Below the pieces are notes generated by a model that saw only the letters and a list, made by a program, of their open reading frames with translations, made no database searches and was not told the origin of the DNA. The position numbers were made by a program, and so were the translations under genes. DNA of 19,205 bases from a virus. Its lineage: Duplodnaviria > Heunggongvirae > Uroviricota > Caudoviricetes. The stretch is taken from the IMG/VR virus record IMGVR_UViG_2675903324_000004; one strand, given 5' to 3'. Within the stretch, counting starts at the first letter, position 1. Each line of letters opens with the position of its first letter. Below are positions 50-18,566 of the stretch, piece after piece.

Positions 50-841
50 ATGAATAAACAATACGAACTGGTTGTTAAAGGGATAAATATTTACCCGGAT
101 AAGATTACTGTTACTGTGGCGCTGGAAACTGGTGGGTATACGTCACTGTTGTTGCCAAATGTGGTGATTGATCTTGATCGTGTTGAAGGTGCCCCGCTGG
201 AGTTTTACGAAGCTGAGGCGAAAAAGAAGGCGAAGCAGTTTTTCATGGATATTGCTGCCGGGTTATGTGAAGGGAACGAACCGTTGCCGGAAAAGCGCCT
301 CTGTTCAGAAGAGCGGTATACCATACAAATTAACAATGCATATAACACGATACAGTCAGAAAAAGATGATATCGAATCACGCATTGAAAAACTGGAGAAC
401 AGCGTCGTTGAACTGAATAAAAAACTGTCGGTGCAGATCCCTTCCGAAGGTGAAAAAAAACGCCGTGATGAGCAGTTCGCGGCGTTTTACGATTATTGCC
501 GGAAAGTGATGAGCAGAAATCTCGCAGAGTGTTTCCGTATTCAAAAAAACAGAGAGCGCTCTGCAAATAGTGAGATTCTGGATAATTTTTTAAAGGGGAC
601 GCATCTCGCCAGTGATTGTTTCATTGCTCATTCTTTTGGTGGCTTTCATGAGGCCATCAAACATGATGTTGAGAGAAGTCCAGGTATCCTCTGTTCCATT
701 CCCGTAAGCATCGAAATAGACACAAATACGATAACCGGTGAACTCGTTACCGCCGGAGTCGGTATATTCCGTCATGAGGGGAACGATGCCAAAGGTTCCT
801 TTACAAAAATCGGGCCGTTCTTTCTGAAGGTAGAGCGATAG
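50..841 (+). CDS. hypothetical protein; accessory (moron-like) gene with a charged, Lys/Glu-rich N-terminal two-thirds
   Basis: 263-codon ORF with ATG at 50 preceded by a G-rich stretch (GGGGAGAG). The first ~180 residues look coding and no competing ORF covers 50-590. The region looks AT-richer than the structural genes (by eye, not computed). The 3' ~250 nt (590-841) overlap the convergent ORF 590-1222 in the codon-aligned antisense frame, so the true 3' extent is uncertain. No family recognised. Confidence 0.5.
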   Translation: MNKQYELVVKGINIYPDKITVTVALETGGYTSLLLPNVVIDLDRVEGAPLEFYEAEAKKKAKQFFMDIAAGLCEGNEPLPEKRLCSEERYTIQINNAYNTIQSEKDDIESRIEKLENSVVELNKKLSVQIPSEGEKKRRDEQFAAFYDYCRKVMSRNLAECFRIQKNRERSANSEILDNFLKGTHLASDCFIAHSFGGFHEAIKHDVERSPGILCSIPVSIEIDTNTITGELVTAGVGIFRHEGNDAKGSFTKIGPFFLKVER

Positions 842-1995: not shown

Positions 1996-2025
1996 AGGCA
2001 CCGTAATGGTGCCTTTGTCATTTCT
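1996..2025 (+). terminator. candidate intrinsic terminator downstream of the endolysin gene
   Basis: Hairpin AGGCACC (1996-2002) / loop GTAAT / GGTGCCT (2008-2014), followed by a T-rich but interrupted tract (TTGTCATTTCT). Confidence 0.4.
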
Positions 2026-2160
2026 GCGCTTCGCACAAGCGTAAATAAACCAAAGAACCTTTCAGGATGAGCCCTGGTGGATAACCGGCAGTGGTCTGGT
2101 TAACCCTCTTTGGGCTGGTTATTCCTGTGCGCAGGGTTCATCACTAAAAGGAAATAACCG

Positions 2161-2733
2161 ATGAATATGATGACCGTGCCGTTTCACGGCGATTCTCTTT
2201 ATGTGGTTAACCATAACGGCGAACCATACGTTCCCATGAAACCTGTCGTTGAGGGAATGGGTATGACCTGGCAGTCTCAACACCGCAAATTGATGGAGAG
2301 ATTTAAGACCTGCATCATCGAAATGATGATTCAGCTCCCCGGTGATACTCAGCGTCGTCTGGTTATCTGTCTTGCTTTACGTAAACTTGCAGGTTGGCTG
2401 CAAACCATCAACCCAAATAAAGTTAAACCTGAAATCCGCGACAGAGTCATTCAGTATCAGGAAGAGTGCGACGATGTTCTCTATGAATACTGGACGAAGG
2501 GTTTTGTCGTTAATCCTCGTCAAATGAGCGTGATGGAAGAACTCAACCAGGCATGCGCTGACATGAAACGGGATAAAAACATTGCCAGTCTGTTTGGTAC
2601 AGGGTTAAACGAATGGAAATTGGTTAAAGCTGCGCATGTGTCAAAAATCCGCACATTGATAAACGAAGCGAATCTGCTGATTGATTTTGTCCTGGCTGAT
2701 ACAGGCAAAGGGAAAATAACAAAGGCGGATTGA
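2161..2733 (+). CDS. phage antirepressor-like protein (tentative; N-terminal region resembles P22-AR-N-type antirepressor domains)
   Basis: 190-aa ORF with SD AAGGA upstream of the ATG. The N-terminal motif TVPFHGDSLYVVNHNGEPYVPMKPVVEGMGMTWQSQ matches my memory of proteins annotated as phage antirepressors that sit between R and Rz in some E. coli lambdoid/Stx-type prophages. The family assignment is from memory only. Confidence 0.6.
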   Translation: MNMMTVPFHGDSLYVVNHNGEPYVPMKPVVEGMGMTWQSQHRKLMERFKTCIIEMMIQLPGDTQRRLVICLALRKLAGWLQTINPNKVKPEIRDRVIQYQEECDDVLYEYWTKGFVVNPRQMSVMEELNQACADMKRDKNIASLFGTGLNEWKLVKAAHVSKIRTLINEANLLIDFVLADTGKGKITKAD

Positions 2734-2882
2734 TGGAGTGGTGGCTAATGATATCGGATAAAATCATAACGCTGACAAAGACCATTTGTGTGATTGTCGG
2801 CGTTTCATTTTCGCTAATGATGGTTGCTCTTTTTCTTTCCATAGCCTGGATGGCGTTGAGTTCGGCAGGGCTGGTGGGGTGA
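2733..2882 (+). CDS. small hydrophobic membrane protein (49 aa); possible lysis-accessory protein
   Basis: Not in the ORF track (<60 aa). Its ATG at 2733 overlaps the upstream stop (TGATG) and its TGA at 2880-2882 overlaps the Rz GTG start (GTGA), so it is translationally coupled on both sides. It encodes MEWWLMISDKIITLTKTICVIVGVSFSLMMVALFLSIAWMALSSAGLVG, with one long or two short transmembrane segments. It lacks the charged C-terminal tail usual for holins. Confidence 0.4.
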   Translation: MEWWLMISDKIITLTKTICVIVGVSFSLMMVALFLSIAWMALSSAGLVG

Positions 2883-3322
2883 GCATAAACCGAATTCTTT
2901 CCGCGTTTACCGTTATTCTGCTGGTGGCCTGTGGTGCGCTTAGTTTGGGGCTGAATCATTACCGTGATAACGCCATCGCCTACAAAGAGCAGCGCGATAA
3001 AGCCACATCCATCATCGCTGATATGCAGAAGCGGCAACGTGATGTAGCAGAACTTGACGCCAGATACACAAAGGAGCTTGCTGATGCTAATGCGACTATC
3101 GAAAGTCTCCGTGCTGATGTTTCTGCTGGGCGTAAGCGCCTGCAAGTCGCCGCCACCTGTGCAAACTCAACGACCGGAGCCAGCAGCATGGGCGATGGAG
3201 AAAGCCCAGGACTTACAGCAGATGCTGAACTCAATTATTACCGTCTCCGAAGTGGAATCGACAGGATAACCGCGCAGGTTAACTACCTGCAGGAGTACAT
3301 CAGGACGCAATGCCTGAAATAA
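2879..3322 (+). CDS. Rz: i-spanin (inner-membrane spanin subunit) Rz
   Basis: From the GTG at 2879 the product begins MSINRILSAFTVILLVACGALSLGLNHYRDNAIAYKEQRDK..., i.e. an N-terminal TMD then a coiled-coil periplasmic domain, closely resembling lambda Rz (…AVNHYRDNAITYKAQRDK…). The upstream extension of the track ORF (TTG at 2786) is non-homologous, so the GTG start is preferred. Confidence 0.9.
   Translation: MSINRILSAFTVILLVACGALSLGLNHYRDNAIAYKEQRDKATSIIADMQKRQRDVAELDARYTKELADANATIESLRADVSAGRKRLQVAATCANSTTGASSMGDGESPGLTADAELNYYRLRSGIDRITAQVNYLQEYIRTQCLK
3084..3269 (+). CDS. Rz1: o-spanin (outer-membrane lipoprotein spanin subunit) Rz1, embedded in the +1 frame of Rz
   Basis: ATG at 3084 with a strong SD (AAGGAG at 3071-3076, 7-nt spacer). 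The signal peptide MLMRLSKVSVLMFLLGVSAC carries a lipobox (VSAC), followed by the Pro-rich mature region (KSPPPVQTQRPEPAAW) characteristic of Rz1. It is wholly embedded in Rz, as in lambda. Confidence 0.85.
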   Translation: MLMRLSKVSVLMFLLGVSACKSPPPVQTQRPEPAAWAMEKAQDLQQMLNSIITVSEVESTG

Positions 3323-3354
3323 TTTTTTTGCAAATCACAAAGTCAATTTAATGA

Positions 3355-3377
3355 GCCTCGCGATGCGGGGCTTTTTT
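3355..3377 (+). terminator. rho-independent terminator after Rz/Rz1
   Basis: 7-bp GC-rich stem GCCTCGC (3355-3361) / loop GAT / GCGGGGC (3365-3371), including one G-U pair, followed by TTTTTT (3372-3377). Confidence 0.7.
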
Positions 3378-3520
3378 ATGTCCGCAGTAAACGCGCATCT
3401 CACGCGCATATTAACGAGAGCCTTTCAGTAAGCGGGCCTGAGAATTGCCGTTATAGGTGGCGACCTCTCTCGGGCGGCTTTTCTGTGAGACAGGCTCACT
3501 TTCTAAAAGGTAAAGACGCC

Positions 3521-4018
3521 ATGAAAGCAATCACGCTTTTTAATACACCGATCCGTGTTGATGAATCAGGAATGATCTGCCTCACTGATATGTGGAAAGC
3601 CAGTGGTAAAAGTGAATCTGAATCTCCGTACCACTACCTGCGAAACAAGCAGACCAAAGAGTTCTTAGCCGAGCTGGAGAAAAACCACGAATCTGTGGTT
3701 TTTACTGAGCGCGGTGTACACGGTGGAACATATGGCGGGAAGTTTGTTGCTTATGATTATGCAGCATGGCTAACCCCCGGATTTAAATATGCAGCCTATA
3801 AAGTCCTGGATGACTACTTCACCGGAGAACTTCAGCATCGCAACAGCTTAAGTGCGCAGCTCAATATGAAGTGTCATGAGTTTGATCAGAAAAAAGATAT
3901 GGCGAGCTTCTGTGGGCAAGGTCTGGCGGCATGGCGCTATACGAAACCAGTGTTGGTCGCTGAGATTAACTCCCTGGCTAACCAGCTGCAGATAACGATC
4001 CCCGGGCTTCCGGGATGA
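3521..4018 (+). CDS. KilA-N domain-containing protein
   Basis: N-terminal region MKAITLFNTPIRVDESGMICLTDMWKASGK…GGKFVAYDYAAWLTPGFKYAAYKVLDDYF resembles KilA-N (APSES-like) DNA-binding domains common in prophage accessory regions. ATG 3521 is preferred over the GTG at 3485 by homology, but the start is uncertain. Confidence 0.7.
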   Translation: MKAITLFNTPIRVDESGMICLTDMWKASGKSESESPYHYLRNKQTKEFLAELEKNHESVVFTERGVHGGTYGGKFVAYDYAAWLTPGFKYAAYKVLDDYFTGELQHRNSLSAQLNMKCHEFDQKKDMASFCGQGLAAWRYTKPVLVAEINSLANQLQITIPGLPG

Positions 4019-4272
4019 GTGATCGTGTCATTGAATGCGCCTCCAGAGCGGGGCGCGACTTCTCAGAGTTCATGAAAGGCGAGAAGGGCATGATGGAAGC
4101 ATTGGCCTCGGTGGATGAGTTTGGCGAGCAGCTGCGCCTCAACGGCTGTGTCAATCATCACTTTGTTAGCTACATGATGCGGAACTCGATCATGCAGGCA
4201 TTCATGGACATGGCAAAAGCCGAGAGGAAAGAAGAGCGCCGGCGTAAGCGAGCGGAAGCAAAAGCGAAGTAG
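4015..4272 (+). CDS. small hypothetical protein (85 aa) with a basic, Arg/Lys-rich C-terminal tail
   Basis: The ATG at 4015 overlaps the stop of the KilA-N gene (ATGA), indicating translational coupling. The C-terminus is AKAERKEERRRKRAEAKAK. No family recognised. Confidence 0.5.
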   Translation: MSDRVIECASRAGRDFSEFMKGEKGMMEALASVDEFGEQLRLNGCVNHHFVSYMMRNSIMQAFMDMAKAERKEERRRKRAEAKAK

Positions 4273-4309
4273 CCATTACAAAGCCTACCTACGGGTGGGC
4301 TTGATAATG
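4273..4309. repeat. copy 1 of a repeated post-stop hairpin element (ATTACAAA - 5-bp stem AAGCC/GGCTT with 12-nt loop containing CCTAC - GATAATG)
   Basis: Lies immediately 3' of the TAG stop at 4270-4272 and resembles the element at 4873-4913 (roughly 75-80 percent identity by eye, same architecture). Confidence 0.6.
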
Positions 4310-4497
4310 AAACCGGAATTTATTCTGGGCAACCAGTTACGGCAGTACAGCGAAACAACCCAAGCCAGTAAGTGGGGAAATAACACTGGCAGCCACTGAA
4401 AGATGAACCTCCAGCCTTATGGCAAAAAAGATTCTTTGTGGTGGCAGACTGATGGAAAGACATCCTAATCAAGCAACCACTCCACAGGGTCATAATT

Positions 4498-4872
4498 ATG
4501 AACGACCAGCAAATCGAAAAAGAAATCGTTGAGAAAGGCAAAACGGCACCGCGTGTAACACCTGAGAAAATTGAAGGCCTCATTTGCAGTGAGCATTTTT
4601 TCACTGCTGCGCAGGGTGGCCACTAGGCTAAAGAAGATGACCTTATTTATAATCCGGAGCCTTATGTCGAAGCCACCCCTGATGCTCTGCACCTTCTTAC
4701 TTTCTGCGTATTGGTACTGAAGAATGGCTTCACCGTTACCGGAGAGAGTGCCTGTGCAAGTCCGGAAAATTTTGATGCAGAAATTGGTCGGAAGATTGCC
4801 CGGCAGAATGCTGTAAACAAAATCTGGATGCTCGAAGGTTACTTGCTGAAGCAGAAGCTAAGCGAACAGTAG
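4498..4872 (+). pseudogene. small phage accessory protein (possibly of the N4 Gp49 / Sf6 gp66-like family, tentative) interrupted by an in-frame TAG at 4624-4626
   Basis: The reading frame is continuous from ATG 4498 to TAG 4870-4872 (124 codons) except for a single in-frame TAG at codon 43. The downstream part (…LHLLTFCVLVLKNGFTVTGESACASPENFDAEIGRKIARQNAVNKIWMLEGYLLKQ) is clearly protein-like and has no in-frame ATG of its own other than one 14 codons from the end. The competing minus-strand ORFs (4320-4604, 4465-4692) look non-coding. Confidence 0.5.
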
Positions 4873-4913
4873 TTATTACAAAAGCCATTCCCTACAGAGT
4901 GGCTTTGATAATG
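4873..4913. repeat. copy 2 of the repeated post-stop hairpin element (7-bp stem AAAGCCA/TGGCTTT, 12-nt loop containing CCTAC, then GATAATG)
   Basis: Lies immediately 3' of the TAG stop at 4870-4872 and has the same architecture and flanking motifs as 4273-4309. Confidence 0.6.
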
Positions 4914-5229
4914 GCTTATACCCTACACGGGATAACTTAATTGATATCCTTTTTAACGGATAAAGGCATTTCAGCCTGACATAGCCATGCGCCGTATCGT
5001 CGCCGTATTCCTGCATTAACAGAGACCGCAGCCCGACAGGGAGACTCCTCTGCGAGAGTGTGCGGGGATAATCAAAAACGATACACACCGGGGTTTACCG
5101 CGTTAACGGAGCGCGGCGTTGTCCCCTCATGGTCGCTGGTCCGGTGCGATGGTGGAAGAAACTGGATTTTGTTGCAACTGATAACCATTATCATTTTGCG
5201 GGTCCTTTCCGGCGATCCGGGCCGTTACG

Positions 5230-5241
5230 GGGCGGCGACCT
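5230..5241. other. cosN: cosN cohesive-end site (12-nt overhang sequence GGGCGGCGACCT)
   Basis: The sequence 5208-5270, GCGGGTCCTTTCCGGCGATCCGGGCCGTTACG|GGGCGGCGACCT|CGCGGGTTTTCGCTATTTATGAAAATTTT, matches my memory of the lambda right-end/left-end junction almost base for base. It lies about 170 bp upstream of the terminase small subunit gene, as in lambda. Confidence 0.9.
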
Positions 5242-5400
5242 CGCGGGTTTTCGCTATTTATGAAAATTTTTAGGGAAAAATCAGATCCGTTCTTCTTCTT
5301 TTTAACTGATTGATTATCAATAGAATTTTAAAAATATAAAAGGATCTGACAAAGGCTGTTTTTGTCCGAAAACGCCATTTTCAGATCCTTTCTGGTTCCC
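5242..5400 (+). promoter_or_regulatory. cosB: cosB-like terminase-binding region with three R-site-like elements and an IHF-consensus-like AT-rich segment
   Basis: R3-like TCAGATCCGTTCTTCTTC (5281-5298); inverted R2-like AAAAGGATCTGACAAAGG (5338-5355); R1-like TTCAGATCCTTTCTGG (5380-5395). Spacing relative to cosN resembles lambda R3/R2/R1. AT-rich 5304-5337 contains a WATCAANNNNTTR-like match on the minus strand (AATCAATCAGTTA). Confidence 0.65.
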
Positions 5401-5410
5401 GGGGGAGTGT

Positions 5411-5959
5411 ATGAACGTCAATAAGAAAAAACTGGCCGATATTTTTGGCGTTGATGTCAGGACCATCACCGCCTGGCAGAGTCAGGGGTTACCACTAGTT
5501 TCTGGTGGAGGGAAAGGGACTGAATCAGTTTTTGATACAACTGCTGCCATTCAGTGGTATGCGCAGAGGGAAGCTGATATTGAAAACGAAAAACTCCGTA
5601 AAGAGATCGAGGATTTGAGGGCTGCCAGCGAATCAGACCTTCAGCCCGGCACCATTGATTACGAACGTTACCGACTGACGAAGGCACAGGCCGATGCACA
5701 GGAGCTGAAAAATGCTCGTGAGGAAGGCCTTGTCCTCGAGACGGAGTTATTTACCTACATCTTTCAGCGAGTGGCACAGAATATATCAGGGATCCTTGTC
5801 CGTGTCCCTCAGACACTGCAGCGTAAATACCCTGATATATCACCCGTACATCTTGATGCTGTGAAAACTGAAATCGCGAAAGCATCCGATGTGGCTTCTG
5901 AAGCCGGTGAGAATGTGCGCAGGTGGATTGATGATTTCAGACGAACTGAGGGCGGCTAA
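5411..5959 (+). CDS. Nu1: terminase small subunit (gpNu1 homolog)
   Basis: 182 aa with SD GGGGGAG upstream. Strong similarity from memory to lambda Nu1 (MEVNKKQLADIFGASIRTIQNWQEQGMPVLRGGGKGNEVLYDSAAVIKWYAE…), including the N-terminal winged-HTH region. Confidence 0.95.
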
Positions 5960-15572: not shown

Positions 15573-16012
15573 ACTTTGCCCTCAGACTGGCGCGTGAGAT
15601 GGGGAGACCCGACTGGCGCGCCATGCTTGCCGGGATGACATCCACCGAATATGCCGACTGGCGACGTTTTTACCGCACGCATTATTTTCACGATACCCAG
15701 CTGGATATGCATTTTTCCGGGCTGACGTACGCCGTACTCAGCCTGTTTTTATACGATCCGGATATGCATCCCTCGGATTTCAGTCTGCTTGTCCCCCGGC
15801 GTGAGGAAGCGCAGACGGAGAGGCCGGATGAGGAAGACATGCTGATGCAGAAAGCGGCAGGACTTGCCGGAGGCGTCCGGTTCGGCGGGGAGGGCGGGGG
15901 CGATATTTCACCTTCTGCGGATGTGGTGGATGTCAGCGAGGATGATGTCGCATTAATGATGGCTTCTGCGGGGATTTCCGGAGGTGTGAGATATGTCCCA
16001 GCCGGTTGGTGA
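15141..16012 (+). CDS. G-T: tail assembly chaperone fusion protein G-T, produced by -1 frameshift at 15548-15554
   Basis: G frame to the slippery site, then the -1 frame (track ORF 15599-16012 plus its upstream open extension). The T-region sequence is similar to lambda gpT (GRPDWRAMLAGM.STEYADW.RFY.THYFHD…LDMHFSGLTY.VLSLF). Confidence 0.8.
15548..15554 (+). promoter_or_regulatory. programmed -1 ribosomal frameshift slippery heptamer G GGA AAG (G -> G-T fusion)
   Basis: The heptamer GGGAAAG sits in the correct phase of the G frame (GGA = codon 15549-15551). The -1 frame is open from here to 16012 and encodes …GKVFDGELNFALRLAREMGRPDW…, matching the lambda gpT region. Confidence 0.85.
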
Positions 16013-18566
16013 TCTTGTTATTGACCTGAGTCTGGATGCGGTCCGTTTCGATGAGCAGATGACCCGCGTAAGGCGTCATTTTTCAGGACTGGAGACTGAC
16101 GCCAGAAAAACCGCCAGTGCTGTTGAGCAGGGGCTGAGCCGTCAGGCGCTGGCTGCACAAAAAGCCGGGATGTCCGTCGGGCAGTATAAAGCGGCCATGC
16201 GAACCCTGCCTGCACAGTTTACGGATATCGCCACGCAGCTTGCCGGTGGTCAGAATCCCTGGCTGATCCTGCTGCAACAGGGCGGTCAGGTGAAGGACTC
16301 CTTCGGCGGGATGATCCCCATGTTCAGGGGGCTCGCCGGTGCGATCACCCTGCCGATGGTCGGGGTCACCTCGCTGGCGGTGGCGACAGGTGCGCTGGTG
16401 TACGCCTGGTACCAGGGAGATTCCACGCTTTCAGCGTTTAATAAAACCCTGGTTCTTTCCGGTAATCAGTCCGGACTGACTGCCGATCGTATGCTGACTC
16501 TCTCAAGAGCCGGGCAGGCAGCAGGGCTGACGTTTAACCAGGCGAGAGAGTCACTGGCAGCCCTGGTGAATGCCGGTGTGCGTGGTGGTGAACAGTTTGA
16601 TGCCATCAACCAGAGTGTCGCGCGTTTTGCGTCTGCATCCGGTGTGGAGGTGGATAAAGTCGCTGAAGCCTTCGGGAAGCTGACCACTGACCCGACGTCG
16701 GGACTGATGGCGATGGCGCGCCAGTTCCGTAACGTGACGGCAGAGCAGATTGCGTATGTTGCACAGCTGCAGCGTTCCGGAGACGAGGCCGGGGCATTGC
16801 AGGCGGCGAACGATATCGCCACGAAAGGCTTTGATGAGCAGACCCGTCGCCTGAAAGAAAACATGGGAACACTGGAGACCTGGGCGGATAAAACAGGGAA
16901 GGCATTCAAATCGATGTGGGATGCCATTCTGGATATCGGTCGTCCTGAATCCTCAGCGGATATGCTCGCCAGTGCGCAGAAGGCATTTGATGAGGCGGAT
17001 AAAAAATGGCAGTGGTACCAGAGCCGGAGCCAGCGCCGGGGAAAGACCTCCTCTTTTCGTGCGAACCTTCAGGGGGCATGGGATGACCGGGAAAATGCCC
17101 GTCTGGGTCTGGCAGCGGCCACGCTGCAGTCGGATATGGAAAAAGCCGGTGAACTGGCGGCAAGGGACCGGGCTGAGCGTTAGGCGTCACAGCTGAAGTA
17201 TACCGGAGAGGCGCAGAAGGCGTATGAGCGCCTGCAGACGCCGCTGGATAAATATACCGCCCGTCAGAAAGAGCTGAATAAGGCCCTGAAAGACGGAAAA
17301 ATCCTGCAGGCGGATTACAACACGCTGATGGCGTCGGCAAAAAAGGATTATGAATCGACGCTGAAAAAGCCGTCAGGTGTGAAGGTGTCTGCCGGTGAGC
17401 GCCAGGAAGACCGGGCGCATGCAGCCATGCTGGCGCTTGAAACCGAGCTCAGGACGCTGGAAAAACACAGCGGTGTGAATGAGAAAATCAGCCAGCAGCG
17501 CCGGGATTTATGGGAAGCGGAAAATCAGTATGTGGTCCTGAAAGAGGCCGCCACGAAACGGCAGTTATCTGAGCAGGAAAAATCCCTGCTGGCTCATGAG
17601 AAAGAAACGCTGGAGTACAAACGCCAGCTGGCTGAGCTGGGTGACAAGGTTGAATACCAGAAACGGCTGAATGAGCTGGCACAGCAGGCGGCACGGTTTG
17701 AAGAGCAGCAGAGCGCGAAGCAGGCCGCCATCAGCGCAAAAGCCCGTGGTCTCACTGACCGTCAGGCGCAGCGGGAGTCTGAAGAGCAGCGTCTTCGTGA
17801 CGTGTATGGCGATAATCCGCAGGCGCTGGCCCGGGTCACCGGGGCACTGAAACAGACATGGGCGGATGAAGACATGCTGCGCGGTGACTGGCTGGCCGGT
17901 CTGAAGTCCGGCTGGGGTGAGTGGACGGAAAGTGCGACGGACAGTTTTTCGCAGGTTAAAAGTGCTGCCACGCAGACCTTTGACGGTATTGCACAGAATA
18001 TGACGGCGATGCTGACCGGTGCAGAGGCAGACTGGCGGGGATTCACCCGTTCGGTGCTGTCCATGATGACAGAAATCCTGCTTAAACAGGCCATGGTGGG
18101 CATTGTCGGGCGTATCGGCAGCGCCATTGGTGGTGCTTTCGGTGGTGGGGCGTCTGCCTCCACGGGGACGGCCATTGAGGCTGCGGCGGCGAACTTTCAT
18201 TTTGCGACCGGCGGATTTACGGGCACGGGCGGCAAATATGAGCCTGCGGGGATAGTTCACCGCGGGGAGTTTGTCTTCACGAAGGAGGCAACCAGCCGGA
18301 TAGGCGTGGGGAATCTTTACCGTCTGATGCGCGGCTATGCGGAAGGGGGTTATGTGGGTGGTGCCGGAAGTCCGGCGCAGATGCGGCGGGCGGAAGGTAT
18401 TAATTTTAATCAGAACAATCACGTGGTGATTCAGAACGACGGTATCAACGGACAGGCGGGGCCGCAGCTGATGAAGGCGGTGTATGACATGGCCCGCAAG
18501 GGGGCGCAGGATGAACTCCGGCTGCAGTTGCGTGATGGCGGTATGTTATCAGGGAGCGGGCGATGA
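15993..18566 (+). pseudogene. H: tail tape measure protein (gpH homolog) interrupted by a single in-frame TAG at 17181-17183
   Basis: Track ORFs 15993-17183 and 17328-18566 are in the same frame (both coordinates ≡ 0 mod 3), and the 144 nt between them are open in that frame. The translation is collinear with lambda gpH across the junction (…LKYTGEAQKAYERLQTPLDKYTARQKELNKALKDGKILQADYNTLMASAKKDYESTLKK). The only interruption is the TAG at 17181-17183. ATG 15993 has SD GGAGG. Confidence 0.85.

What the first reader, a model, noticed from the sequence alone, without database searches (positions are those of the whole stretch)
4498..4872. Second in-frame amber codon (TAG 4624-4626) in a small accessory gene
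A 124-codon frame is open except for one TAG at codon 43, and the downstream 81 codons are clearly coding with no plausible start of their own. Together with H, this makes two TAG interruptions in about 19 kb of otherwise intact phage genes. Two events are weak statistical evidence, but a shared cause (amber suppression in the host, or an amber-mutant phage lineage) is worth excluding.
Basis: partly seen in the sequence, partly recalled or inferred. Interest (0 to 1): 0.55.

Follow-up and report, generated by a model that had tools for sequence, protein, structure and literature searches.

The report
Nonsense-inactivated anti-CBASS sponge gene (acb4/Gp49)
The in-frame TAG is real, but it is an ordinary inherited knock-out mutation (CAG to TAG at a known E. 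coli mutation hotspot) in a small phage accessory gene of the Acb4 anti-defence family, and it has no cause in common with the second TAG in the tail gene.

Summary
Observation confirmed. Window 4498-4872 is a 124-codon Gp49/PF13876 gene with one TAG at codon 43 (4624-4626). PF13876 is the Acb4 anti-CBASS cyclic-dinucleotide sponge family.

Intact alleles about 99.5% identical in DNA (WP_000999684.1, 124 aa) read CAG (Gln) there. The change is C>T at the inner C of a CCAGG Dcm site, the classical 5-methylcytosine deamination amber hotspot.

The allele is inherited, not an error. It occurs in 4 of 5426 complete E. coli genomes, where RefSeq already calls it a pseudogene with an internal stop, and on at least 15 further contigs. 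One carrier is a Stx1a prophage with no other flagged gene in the 32 kb examined.

The H amber (17181-17183) is a separate event: GAG>TAG, a G>T transversion, absent from all 588 genomes that hold that segment. Sister prophages carry other private lesions: a different H amber, a terS ochre and a terL frameshift.

No suppressor was found. The window has no tRNA gene, and the closest host has wild-type glnV and glnX. supF-, supD- and supP-type tRNAs are absent or nearly absent from the 5426 genomes. TAG is also the expected commonest nonsense codon here (45% of all paths, 68% of transition paths).

Verdict: a known kind of nonsense pseudogene in a mosaic STEC prophage. Low interest.

The parts
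4498..4623 (+). N-terminal 42 codons of the Gp49/Acb4-family gene. This is all that a non-suppressing host would translate.
   Evidence: Conserved start MNDQQIEKEI in all homologues. The fragment alone has no Pfam hit. The exact 42-aa product is on record on at least 15 contigs.
4619..4619 (+). A>G change (GAC>GGC, D41G) on top of the TAG haplotype. It is absent from the complete-genome carriers but present in other assemblies.
4623..4627 (+). CTAGG, a former Dcm site. It reads CCAGG in intact alleles, and the mutated base 4624 is the inner, methylated C.
   Evidence: It is one of only two CTAG tetranucleotides in the window.
4624..4626 (+). In-frame amber codon, codon 43. The ancestral codon is CAG (Gln).
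4627..4872 (+). The 81 untranslated downstream codons plus the gene's own TAG terminator. They encode the region aligned with the SPO1 Acb4 structure and all mapped ligand-contact positions.
   Evidence: Pfam 108 bits for this part alone. Aligns with SPO1 Acb4 (PDB 9E4W) over residues 56-109. The C-terminal 60 aa are invariant among enteric homologues.
15993..18566 (+). Tail tape-measure gene H, 857 codons, the other interrupted gene. It is context for the finding, not part of the same event.
17181..17183 (+). Amber at codon 397 of H. The ancestral codon is GAG (Glu), the change is a G>T transversion, and it was not found outside the window.

Best explanation
The gene at 4498-4872 is a null allele, by nonsense mutation, of a phage accessory gene of the Gp49/PF13876 family. 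Its founding member, SPO1 Acb4, is a tetrameric sponge that sequesters CBASS cyclic-dinucleotide signals.

Shown:
- A single C>T transition converted Gln43 CAG to TAG.
- The mutated base is the inner C of a CCAGG Dcm site.
- The allele is inherited within a nearly invariant 3.4-kb haplotype (roughly 2000-5400, lysis, antirepressor, KilA-N and Gp49 genes). This block has recombined onto different lambdoid and Stx structural modules in a few STEC strains.
- The amber in H is a later, unrelated G>T event.

Inferred:
- The cause was deamination of 5-methylcytosine that escaped very-short-patch repair. This is the classical amber hotspot mechanism.
- In an ordinary sup0 host, translation ends after 42 residues, before the Acb4-like part of the protein, so no functional sponge is made.
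- The loss is tolerated because the gene is dispensable for phage growth in hosts without a matching defence.
- The H amber makes this particular prophage tail-defective.
For: Family and domain:
- PF13876 match at 118 bits spanning the stop.
- PF13876 is the Acb4 family, and all eight purified homologues bound 3'3'-cGAMP (bioRxiv 10.1101/2024.12.30.630793).
- Direct hit to PDB 9E4W at E=0.0037, and every mapped contact residue lies downstream of codon 43.

Ancestral state and mutation:
- The ancestral codon is CAG in alleles that differ from the carriers at no other base (2012EL-2448) or only at six synonymous sites (ECE170).
- The context is CCAGG>CTAGG. Only 11 of 227 CAG codons in the window's genes sit in such a site.
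- CCAGG ambers were the roughly 10-fold hotspots in lacI (PMC12606429).

Inheritance:
- The same allele is in S19-141, STEC435, OkiPb01681 and OkiPb01694, where RefSeq annotates it as a pseudogene with an internal stop or as a split gene.
- It is also on at least 15 further contigs.
- The block at about 2000-5400 differs by 0-3 bases per kb among carriers, while the structural modules differ by up to 156 per kb.
- In OkiPb01694 it sits in a Stx1a prophage with no other flagged gene in the 32 kb examined.

Relaxed constraint:
- The two further changes on TAG haplotypes are both nonsynonymous (D41G, T21A). The six changes between intact alleles are all synonymous.

Independence from H:
- The ancestral codon is GAG in five relatives and the change is private to the window.
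- Other private lesions in sister prophages are H Q825am, terS TTA>TAA and a terL frameshift.

Background:
- TAG makes up 45% of all single-base nonsense paths and 68% of transition paths in these genes.
- Defective lambdoid prophages are the rule in EHEC (PMC2669165).
Against: - The host genome of the window is not available, so a host suppressor cannot be excluded directly.
- Three of the five independent lesions seen in this prophage group are ambers. The two closest prophages (the window and OkiPb01681) each carry the Gp49 amber plus a private H amber. That is mildly more amber-rich than a naive expectation.
- Attribution of one historical mutation to 5mC deamination is circumstantial. About 5% of random CAG>TAG events would fall in a Dcm site by chance.
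- No member of this enteric Gp49 clade was shown here to bind a cyclic dinucleotide, and several SPO1 contact residues are not conserved (E49>T79, Y57>A87, T70>I100).
Confidence: 0.9

Rival explanations
1. The host, or a co-resident prophage, carries an amber-suppressor tRNA. Both TAGs are then read through and the prophage stays functional. This is the shared cause the first reader proposed.
For: Both interruptions in the window are TAG. The closest relative, OkiPb01681, also carries two ambers, one of them private. A Gln-inserting suppressor would restore the wild-type Gp49 sequence. The window's own host could not be examined.
Against: - The window has no tRNA gene.
- OkiPb01681 has wild-type CUG anticodons in both glnV and glnX.
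- Exact-match searches with CUA-anticodon tRNAs over 5426 complete genomes gave 155 supE-type hits, and the 30 listed were mostly named K-12 laboratory strains. They gave 0 supF-type tyrT, 1 supD-type serU (DSM 498) and 0 full-length supP-type leuX.
- The two ambers arose at different times by different mutation classes.
- Carriers of the Gp49 amber also carry an ochre and a frameshift.
- Gp49 and its upstream neighbour both use TAG as their normal terminator.
- Both post-amber changes in Gp49 are nonsynonymous.
Confidence: 0.03
2. The TAG is a sequencing or assembly error and the gene is intact.
For: No read data were available. No complete genome matches the window exactly.
Against: The same T is present in four independently sequenced complete genomes. 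The exact 42-aa product with the D41G change is on at least 15 contigs from separate NCBI and SRA assemblies, two of them 100% identical to the window over about 2.1 kb.
Confidence: 0.01
3. The gene is split but still functional. The C-terminal Acb4-like part is expressed on its own by re-initiation downstream of the TAG, as RefSeq's 75-aa 'Gp49 family protein' WP_373415747.1 implies.
For: The 81 downstream codons are unchanged in all five carrier alleles compared and still score 108 bits against PF13876. PGAP annotates a 75-aa product starting at ATT, which corresponds to window 4645. SPO1 Acb4 itself is only 96 aa.
Against: - The only in-frame candidates are ATT 4645, TTG 4711, ATG 4828 and TTG 4843, none preceded by a Shine-Dalgarno-like motif on my reading.
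- All natural homologues keep the conserved 40-residue N-terminus, and the first 15 positions of the Pfam model lie upstream of the stop.
- The lack of downstream changes is expected for a young allele: carriers differ by 0-3 bases per kb across the whole block.
- A stoichiometric sponge needs abundant protein, which weak re-initiation would not supply. This last point is inference.
Confidence: 0.03
4. The knock-out was positively selected. Loss of the Acb4 sponge lets the phage escape host systems that sense sponge activity, such as PanDA, which fires when Acb4 sequesters 3'3'-c-di-AMP.
For: The null allele travels in a Stx1a prophage with no other flagged gene in the 32 kb examined, and has spread to strains from Japan, China and Switzerland and onto several structural backbones. 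Acb4 homologues from Gram-negative phages bind 3'3'-cAA. PanDA is triggered by Acb4-encoding phage (PMC13640721 abstract). An independent frameshifted Gp49 exists in isolate A3176.
Against: The allele is rare: 4 of 5426 complete genomes, against 34 other genomes with the same local allele and thousands with other Gp49 alleles. Neutral hitch-hiking in a recombining prophage pool explains the same facts. No sponge-sensing system was looked for or shown in these hosts.
Confidence: 0.08

Closest known systems
RefSeq pseudogenes QYQ94_RS10040 (STEC435), ACZ5ML_RS10605 (OkiPb01681) and ACZ5DA_RS11385 (OkiPb01694), 'Gp49 family protein, internal stop'
   Same: The same TAG at the same codon, on the same haplotype. 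Their DNA differs from the window only at 4619 over 375 bp.
   Different: They lack the D41G change. Their prophages have an intact H, or a different H amber in OkiPb01681.
WP_000999684.1, the intact 124-aa Gp49 family protein (E. coli 2012EL-2448, ECE170)
   Same: 98% identical protein, with the same start, length and terminator.
   Different: It has CAG (Gln) at codon 43 and Asp at 41, and is the presumed functional ancestor.
Bacillus phage SPO1 Acb4 (PDB 9E4W), founder of the PF13876 anti-CBASS sponge family
   Same: Same Pfam family. The sequences align over the beta-core and the ENF-x-x-EIGR segment. The equivalents of F48, F62 and I66 are conserved as F78, F92 and I96.
   Different: Only a distant relative (E=0.0037). 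It lacks the about 30-residue N-terminal extension and the hypervariable central cassette. Several contact residues differ. The window copy is truncated before the entire aligned region.
Shigella phage Sf6 gene 66 protein, one of the two proteins the Pfam family is named after
   Same: 76% identical, with an identical N-terminus and C-terminal 60 aa. It occupies the same genomic slot after the lysis genes.
   Different: The ORF is intact (126 aa), the central segment is different, and the phage is P22-like.
lacI amber hotspots at CCAGG (Coulondre et al. 1978, as reviewed in PMC12606429)
   Same: The same change, C>T at the second C of CCAGG, converting an in-frame CAG to TAG.
   Different: Those were measured as recurrent events in a laboratory spectrum. 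Here a single historical event is attributed by context only.
Classical amber-mutant phages propagated on supE or supF hosts
   Same: In-frame TAGs in phage genes, one of them in an essential tail gene.
   Different: No suppressor was found where it could be looked for. The mutations are of different ages, and a natural STEC prophage pool is not a laboratory stock.

Membership tests
Acb4 / Pfam PF13876 (Phage_gp49_66) | Match to the family HMM above the gathering score | tested here: met
   118.1 bits against a cut-off of 27, residues 20-121 covering model positions 1-82, for the conceptual read-through product. The C-terminal 81 aa alone score 108 bits.
Acb4 / Pfam PF13876 (Phage_gp49_66) | Sequence similarity to the structurally solved founder (SPO1 Acb4, 9E4W) | tested here: met
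   phmmer E=0.0037, query 56-109 against chain 31-80. The match is weak but specific, and it was the only PDB hit.
Acb4 / Pfam PF13876 (Phage_gp49_66) | Conservation of the ligand-contact residues defined in SPO1 Acb4 (K36, F48, E49, V56, Y57, F62, N63, I66, T70, K81) | tested here: inconclusive
   From the alignment with a +1 chain offset: F78, F92 and I96 are conserved, and N63 becomes D93 (a backbone contact). E49>T79, Y57>A87 and T70>I100 differ. K36 falls in the hypervariable segment. Residue list.
Acb4 / Pfam PF13876 (Phage_gp49_66) | Tetramer that binds 3'3'-cGAMP and related signals and blocks CBASS | not testable with these tools
   This needs biochemistry. The paper reports binding for all eight homologues it purified, but I could not establish whether any belongs to this enteric clade.
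Acb4 / Pfam PF13876 (Phage_gp49_66) | Uninterrupted reading frame giving the full-length protein | tested here: not met
   TAG at codon 43. The window copy is therefore a pseudogene member of the family, not a functional one.
Nonsense pseudogene (inherited null allele) | An in-frame stop at a position where close orthologues have a sense codon, with homology continuing beyond the stop | tested here: met
   CAG in 2012EL-2448 and ECE170. The sequence is identical downstream.
Nonsense pseudogene (inherited null allele) | Signs of relaxed constraint after the stop arose | tested here: inconclusive
   Two of two later changes on TAG haplotypes are nonsynonymous, against none of six between intact alleles (Fisher p about 0.04 by my own calculation). 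The numbers are tiny.
Dcm-site 5-methylcytosine deamination hotspot | A C>T transition at the inner C of CCWGG | tested here: met
   CCAGG>CTAGG at 4623-4627.
Dcm-site 5-methylcytosine deamination hotspot | The host methylates the site (dcm+) | not tested
   dcm is usual in E. coli (established knowledge), but no host genome was checked for it.
Suppressor-dependent (amber-suppressed) gene or TAG reassignment | A tRNA with a CUA anticodon available in cis or in the host | tested here: not met
   No tRNA in the window. The closest relative's glnV and glnX are wild type. supF-, supD- and supP-type tRNAs are absent from all the relatives' genomes. The window's own host is not testable.
Suppressor-dependent (amber-suppressed) gene or TAG reassignment | TAG avoided as a true terminator, and in-frame TAGs recurrent and conserved among relatives | tested here: not met
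   Two of 23 genes end in TAG, including Gp49 itself. The Gp49 TAG is confined to one haplotype and the H TAG is private.
Programmed stop-codon read-through or recoding | The stop is conserved across homologues, with a conserved downstream signal | tested here: not met
   All six other homologues aligned have sense codons there. There is no Rfam match in the window.

The most novel reading that the evidence does not exclude
The amber is not a neutral scar but a selected escape allele. Stx1a and lambdoid phages that lost their Acb4-type sponge would avoid triggering host 'guard' systems, such as PanDA or Panoptes-like systems, that fire when a phage sponge depletes a constitutively made cyclic dinucleotide. 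That would explain why the null allele travels in a prophage with no other flagged gene and has spread onto several backbones. A still rarer variant of this reading is that the window's unseen host carries a natural amber suppressor that keeps both ambers leaky.
Probability: 0.08. Interest if true: 0.4.

Novelty: already known. Interest (0 to 1): 0.1.

Why it matters
It matters little beyond correct annotation.
- The gene should be labelled a pseudogene of the Acb4 (anti-CBASS sponge) family, not two small ORFs. It should not be taken as evidence for amber suppression.
- It is a clean natural example of the Dcm CCAGG>CTAGG amber hotspot.
- It provides a natural acb4 null allele, next to a near-isogenic intact allele, in Stx-phage backgrounds. 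That pair could serve to test whether enteric Gp49 proteins counter CBASS, or trigger sponge-sensing defences.
- The private amber in H means this particular prophage probably cannot build tails without help from co-resident prophages.

Tried and rejected
- **Source lookup for H:** exact-product look-ups of both H fragments (396 aa and 412 aa) found nothing on record. The H amber therefore could not be replicated or traced.
- **supP check, first attempt:** I queried a CUA variant of what turned out to be leuZ rather than leuX. The best identity was 97.7%, so the search was uninformative. I repeated it with leuX. The 7 records at 99% or more there are partial matches, since 5432 records matched but only 5425 were covered to at least 80%.
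- **supE check:** 155 genomes hold the exact suppressor, too many to list. Only OkiPb01681 was checked directly, by fetching its glnX-glnV operon. S19-141, STEC435 and OkiPb01694 were not checked individually.
- **RNA and signal scans:** the Rfam scan of the whole window gave no match. The promoter and terminator scan of 4200-5450 gave nothing above shuffled expectation.
- **Literature:** the term 'Gp49 family' led only to an unrelated cyanophage paper. The link to Acb4 came from the PDB hit.
- **Annotation label:** the 'anti-CRISPR protein' label on the phage Huey homologue is unsupported. PHROGs lists the family as function unknown.
- **Not run:** structure prediction and the very large protein searches. 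The Pfam score and the published family assignment already settle what the gene is, and the fold has no bearing on the TAG question.
- **Rejected on the evidence:** programmed read-through, a naturally short homologue, and sequencing error at 4624 (see rivals and membership tests).

Full report
**1. The observation**

Window 4498-4872 on the + strand translates as 42 codons, then TAG at 4624-4626, then 81 codons, then the terminator TAG at 4870-4872.

- With Gln at codon 43, the 124-aa product matches Pfam PF13876 (Phage_gp49_66) at 118.1 bits (cut-off 27) over residues 20-121. The match therefore spans the stop.
- The 81 downstream codons alone score 108 bits. The 42-aa head alone scores nothing.
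- Seven enteric homologues align end to end, all 123-126 aa, all starting MNDQQIEKEI.
- In-frame restart candidates after the stop are ATT 4645, TTG 4711, ATG 4828 and TTG 4843. None is preceded by an obvious Shine-Dalgarno motif on my reading of the printed upstream bases.

The window is the late region of a lambdoid prophage. It runs from lysozyme, antirepressor, Rz, KilA-N and Gp49 through terS, terL, W, portal, C, D, E, FI, FII, Z, U, V, G, T and H to M. Of its 23 genes, only Gp49 and H have internal stops, and both are TAG.

**2. What the gene is**

The only hit in the PDB is 9E4W, 'anti-CBASS 4 (Acb4)' of Bacillus phage SPO1 (E=0.0037, query 56-109). Chang et al. (bioRxiv 10.1101/2024.12.30.630793) state that SPO1 Acb4 belongs to PF13876. 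They also report the following:

- The 1,331 family members are predominantly in phages and prophages.
- The protein is a tetrameric sponge for 3'3'-cGAMP.
- All eight homologues they purified bind 3'3'-cGAMP.
- Only those from phages of Gram-negative hosts also bind 3'3'-cAA.

I mapped their contact residues through the alignment. F48, F62 and I66 correspond to the conserved F78, F92 and I96. E49, Y57 and T70 correspond to T79, A87 and I100, which differ. Every mapped contact lies downstream of codon 43. Family membership is therefore secure, but ligand specificity is not established for this clade.

PHROGs lists the family as function unknown. One phage record labels its homologue 'anti-CRISPR protein', which I regard as a pipeline label.

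**3. Ancestral codon and mutational mechanism**

The nearest intact alleles both encode WP_000999684.1 and read CAC CAG GCT where the window reads CAC TAG GCT.

- The 2012EL-2448 allele differs from the window at two bases.
- The ECE170 allele differs from 2012EL-2448 only at six synonymous sites.

The change is therefore Gln CAG>TAG, a C>T transition. The context is CCAGG>CTAGG, which puts the mutated base at the inner C of a Dcm site.

Deamination of 5-methylcytosine at exactly this motif produced the roughly 10-fold amber hotspots in lacI (Coulondre et al. 1978, as reviewed in PMC12606429). Only 11 of 227 CAG codons in the window's genes lie in an in-frame CCAGG, so chance placement is about 5%. 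The attribution is circumstantial but well founded.

The mutation created one of only two CTAG tetranucleotides in 19.2 kb, against about 73 expected from base composition.

**4. Distribution**

A 63-nt probe centred on the TAG matches exactly in 4 of 5426 complete E. coli genomes. Thirty-four other genomes carry the same local allele with at least one difference.

| Carrier | Source | RefSeq annotation of Gp49 |
|---|---|---|
| S19-141 | human, Switzerland | split: a partial CDS plus a 75-aa protein starting at ATT |
| STEC435 | human, China | pseudogene, internal stop |
| OkiPb01681 | bovine, Japan | pseudogene, internal stop |
| OkiPb01694 | bovine, Japan | pseudogene, internal stop |

The window's version carries one more change, D41G at 4619. 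The exact 42-aa product with that change is on at least 15 further contigs from NCBI and SRA assemblies. Two of these are 100% identical to the window over about 2.1 kb. The TAG is therefore a real, inherited allele.

Among carriers, the block at about 2000-5400 differs by 0-3 bases per kb. The structural genes differ by up to 156 per kb, which is the usual lambdoid mosaic. In OkiPb01694 the allele lies in a Stx1a prophage in which no other gene of the 32 kb inspected is flagged. The loss appears to be tolerated by a prophage that otherwise looks intact.

**5. The second amber and the 'shared cause'**

H codon 397 reads TAG at 17181-17183.

- Five relatives read GAG (Glu) there, so the change is a G>T transversion and is not at a Dcm site.
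- None of the 588 genomes holding this H segment has the TAG.
- Carriers of the Gp49 amber have an intact H (S19-141, STEC435, OkiPb01694 Stx1a prophage) or a different H amber (OkiPb01681, Q825 CAG>TAG).
- S19-141 also has a terS ochre (TTA>TAA), and STEC435 has a terL frameshift.

The two TAGs of the window therefore differ in mutation class, context and age.

Enumeration of every single-base change in the 23 genes gives 1782 nonsense paths. TAG accounts for 798 of them (45%), and for 316 of the 462 transition paths (68%). By my arithmetic on those counts, two ambers out of two nonsense events has a probability of about 0.2-0.3. Three ambers among five independent lesions in the group is not significant either.

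**6. Suppressor search**

- The window has no tRNA gene.
- In OkiPb01681, the only relative with two ambers, I located the glnX-glnV operon. Both genes have CUG anticodons.
- CUA-anticodon versions of the tRNAs were searched against all 5426 complete genomes:

| Suppressor type | tRNA gene | Exact full-length matches |
|---|---|---|
| supE | glnV/glnX | 155 genomes; the 30 listed are mostly named K-12 laboratory strains (C600, DH5alpha, DH1), which serves as a positive control |
| supF | tyrT | 0 |
| supD | serU | 1 (DSM 498) |
| supP | leuX | 0 |

- Gp49 and its upstream neighbour both end in TAG.
- The later changes on TAG haplotypes (D41G, T21A) are both nonsynonymous. The six changes between intact alleles are all synonymous.

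The window's own host remains unexamined, so I leave about 3% for this rival.

**7. Mechanism and consequence**

Shown: the stop, its ancestry, its sequence context, its inheritance and its independence from H.

Inferred:
- 5mC deamination that escaped Vsr repair produced the amber.
- Translation ends after 42 residues, before the Acb4-like part of the protein.
- Spontaneous read-through, from general knowledge no more than about 1%, cannot supply a stoichiometric sponge.
- The gene is dispensable where no matching CBASS is met, so the allele hitch-hikes in the recombining STEC prophage pool. Genetic defects are the norm in that pool (PMC2669165).
- The H amber, if real, truncates the tape measure at 396 of 857 residues and makes this copy tail-defective unless another prophage complements it.

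**8. Novelty**

The allele is already annotated as a pseudogene in RefSeq. Both the mutational mechanism and the gene family are known.

One mildly interesting possibility remains. Loss of the sponge might be selected, because systems such as PanDA are triggered by Acb4 (PMC13640721 abstract). I give this about 8%.

Interest is low.

Noticed in passing
window 17181-17183 (H, 15993-18566): The amber at codon 397 of the tape-measure gene derives from GAG by a G>T transversion. It is absent from all 588 complete genomes that hold this segment and could not be replicated in any other assembly. It is either a very recent lesion or, less likely, an error.
   Followed up: yes
L006 20156-20158 (OkiPb01681 H codon 825); L007 5416-5925 (S19-141 terS); L008 5897-7824 (STEC435 terL): Sister prophages that carry the same Gp49 amber each have a different private lesion: H Q825 CAG>TAG, terS L121 TTA>TAA, and a terL frameshift. 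This points to independent decay of copies of one mosaic prophage family.
   Followed up: yes
window 4618-4690 (Gp49 residues about 41-63); alignments A1 and A2: Enteric Gp49/Acb4 homologues have an almost identical N-terminal 40 aa and an invariant C-terminal 60 aa. The 3' 150 bp are identical in DNA even between alleles 86% identical overall. Between these lies a hypervariable central cassette. The SPO1 guanine-contact residue K36 maps into this cassette, which could tune ligand specificity or evasion of host sensing.
   Followed up: partly
window 4623 and 5495: CTAG occurs only twice in 19,205 bases, against about 73 expected from base composition. This is the known CTAG depletion of E. coli. 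One of the two copies was created by the Gp49 mutation.
   Followed up: partly
window 50-841: A 263-aa ORF has a DUF1327 match only in its first 96 residues. RefSeq calls the homologous ORF in 2014C-4587 and OkiPb01694 'partial, missing C-terminus'. It is probably a truncated or fused gene at a recombination joint, since the window diverges from its closest relative upstream of about 1310.
   Followed up: partly
L003 746-973 (= window 4645-4872): PGAP annotates the part of the same allele downstream of the stop as a separate 75-aa 'Gp49 family protein' (WP_373415747.1) starting at ATT. This looks like an annotation artefact, and it has put a truncated protein into RefSeq.
   Followed up: yes
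L016 505-878 (E. coli A3176, chicken): An independently disrupted (frameshifted) Gp49 homologue in an unrelated allele. It could be a second loss event or a long-read indel error.
   Followed up: no
window 2161-2733 and 3521-4018: The P22-type antirepressor and the KilA-N protein flanking the Rz gene both end in an ORF11CD3 domain. The lysis-to-terminase interval is packed with accessory genes of this sort.
   Followed up: no
window 4873-5410: A 538-bp stretch without a gene lies between Gp49 and terS. It begins with an AAAGCCA...TGGCTTT hairpin right after the stop codon and presumably holds cos. There was no Rfam match and no consensus terminator or excess of promoters.
   Followed up: partly
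E. coli genome collection: Exact supE-type glnV/X(CUA) is present in 155 of 5426 complete genomes; the 30 listed are mostly named K-12 laboratory strains. A supD-type serU(CUA) is present in one genome (DSM 498). No annotated feature lay under any of these exact matches that were listed.
   Followed up: no
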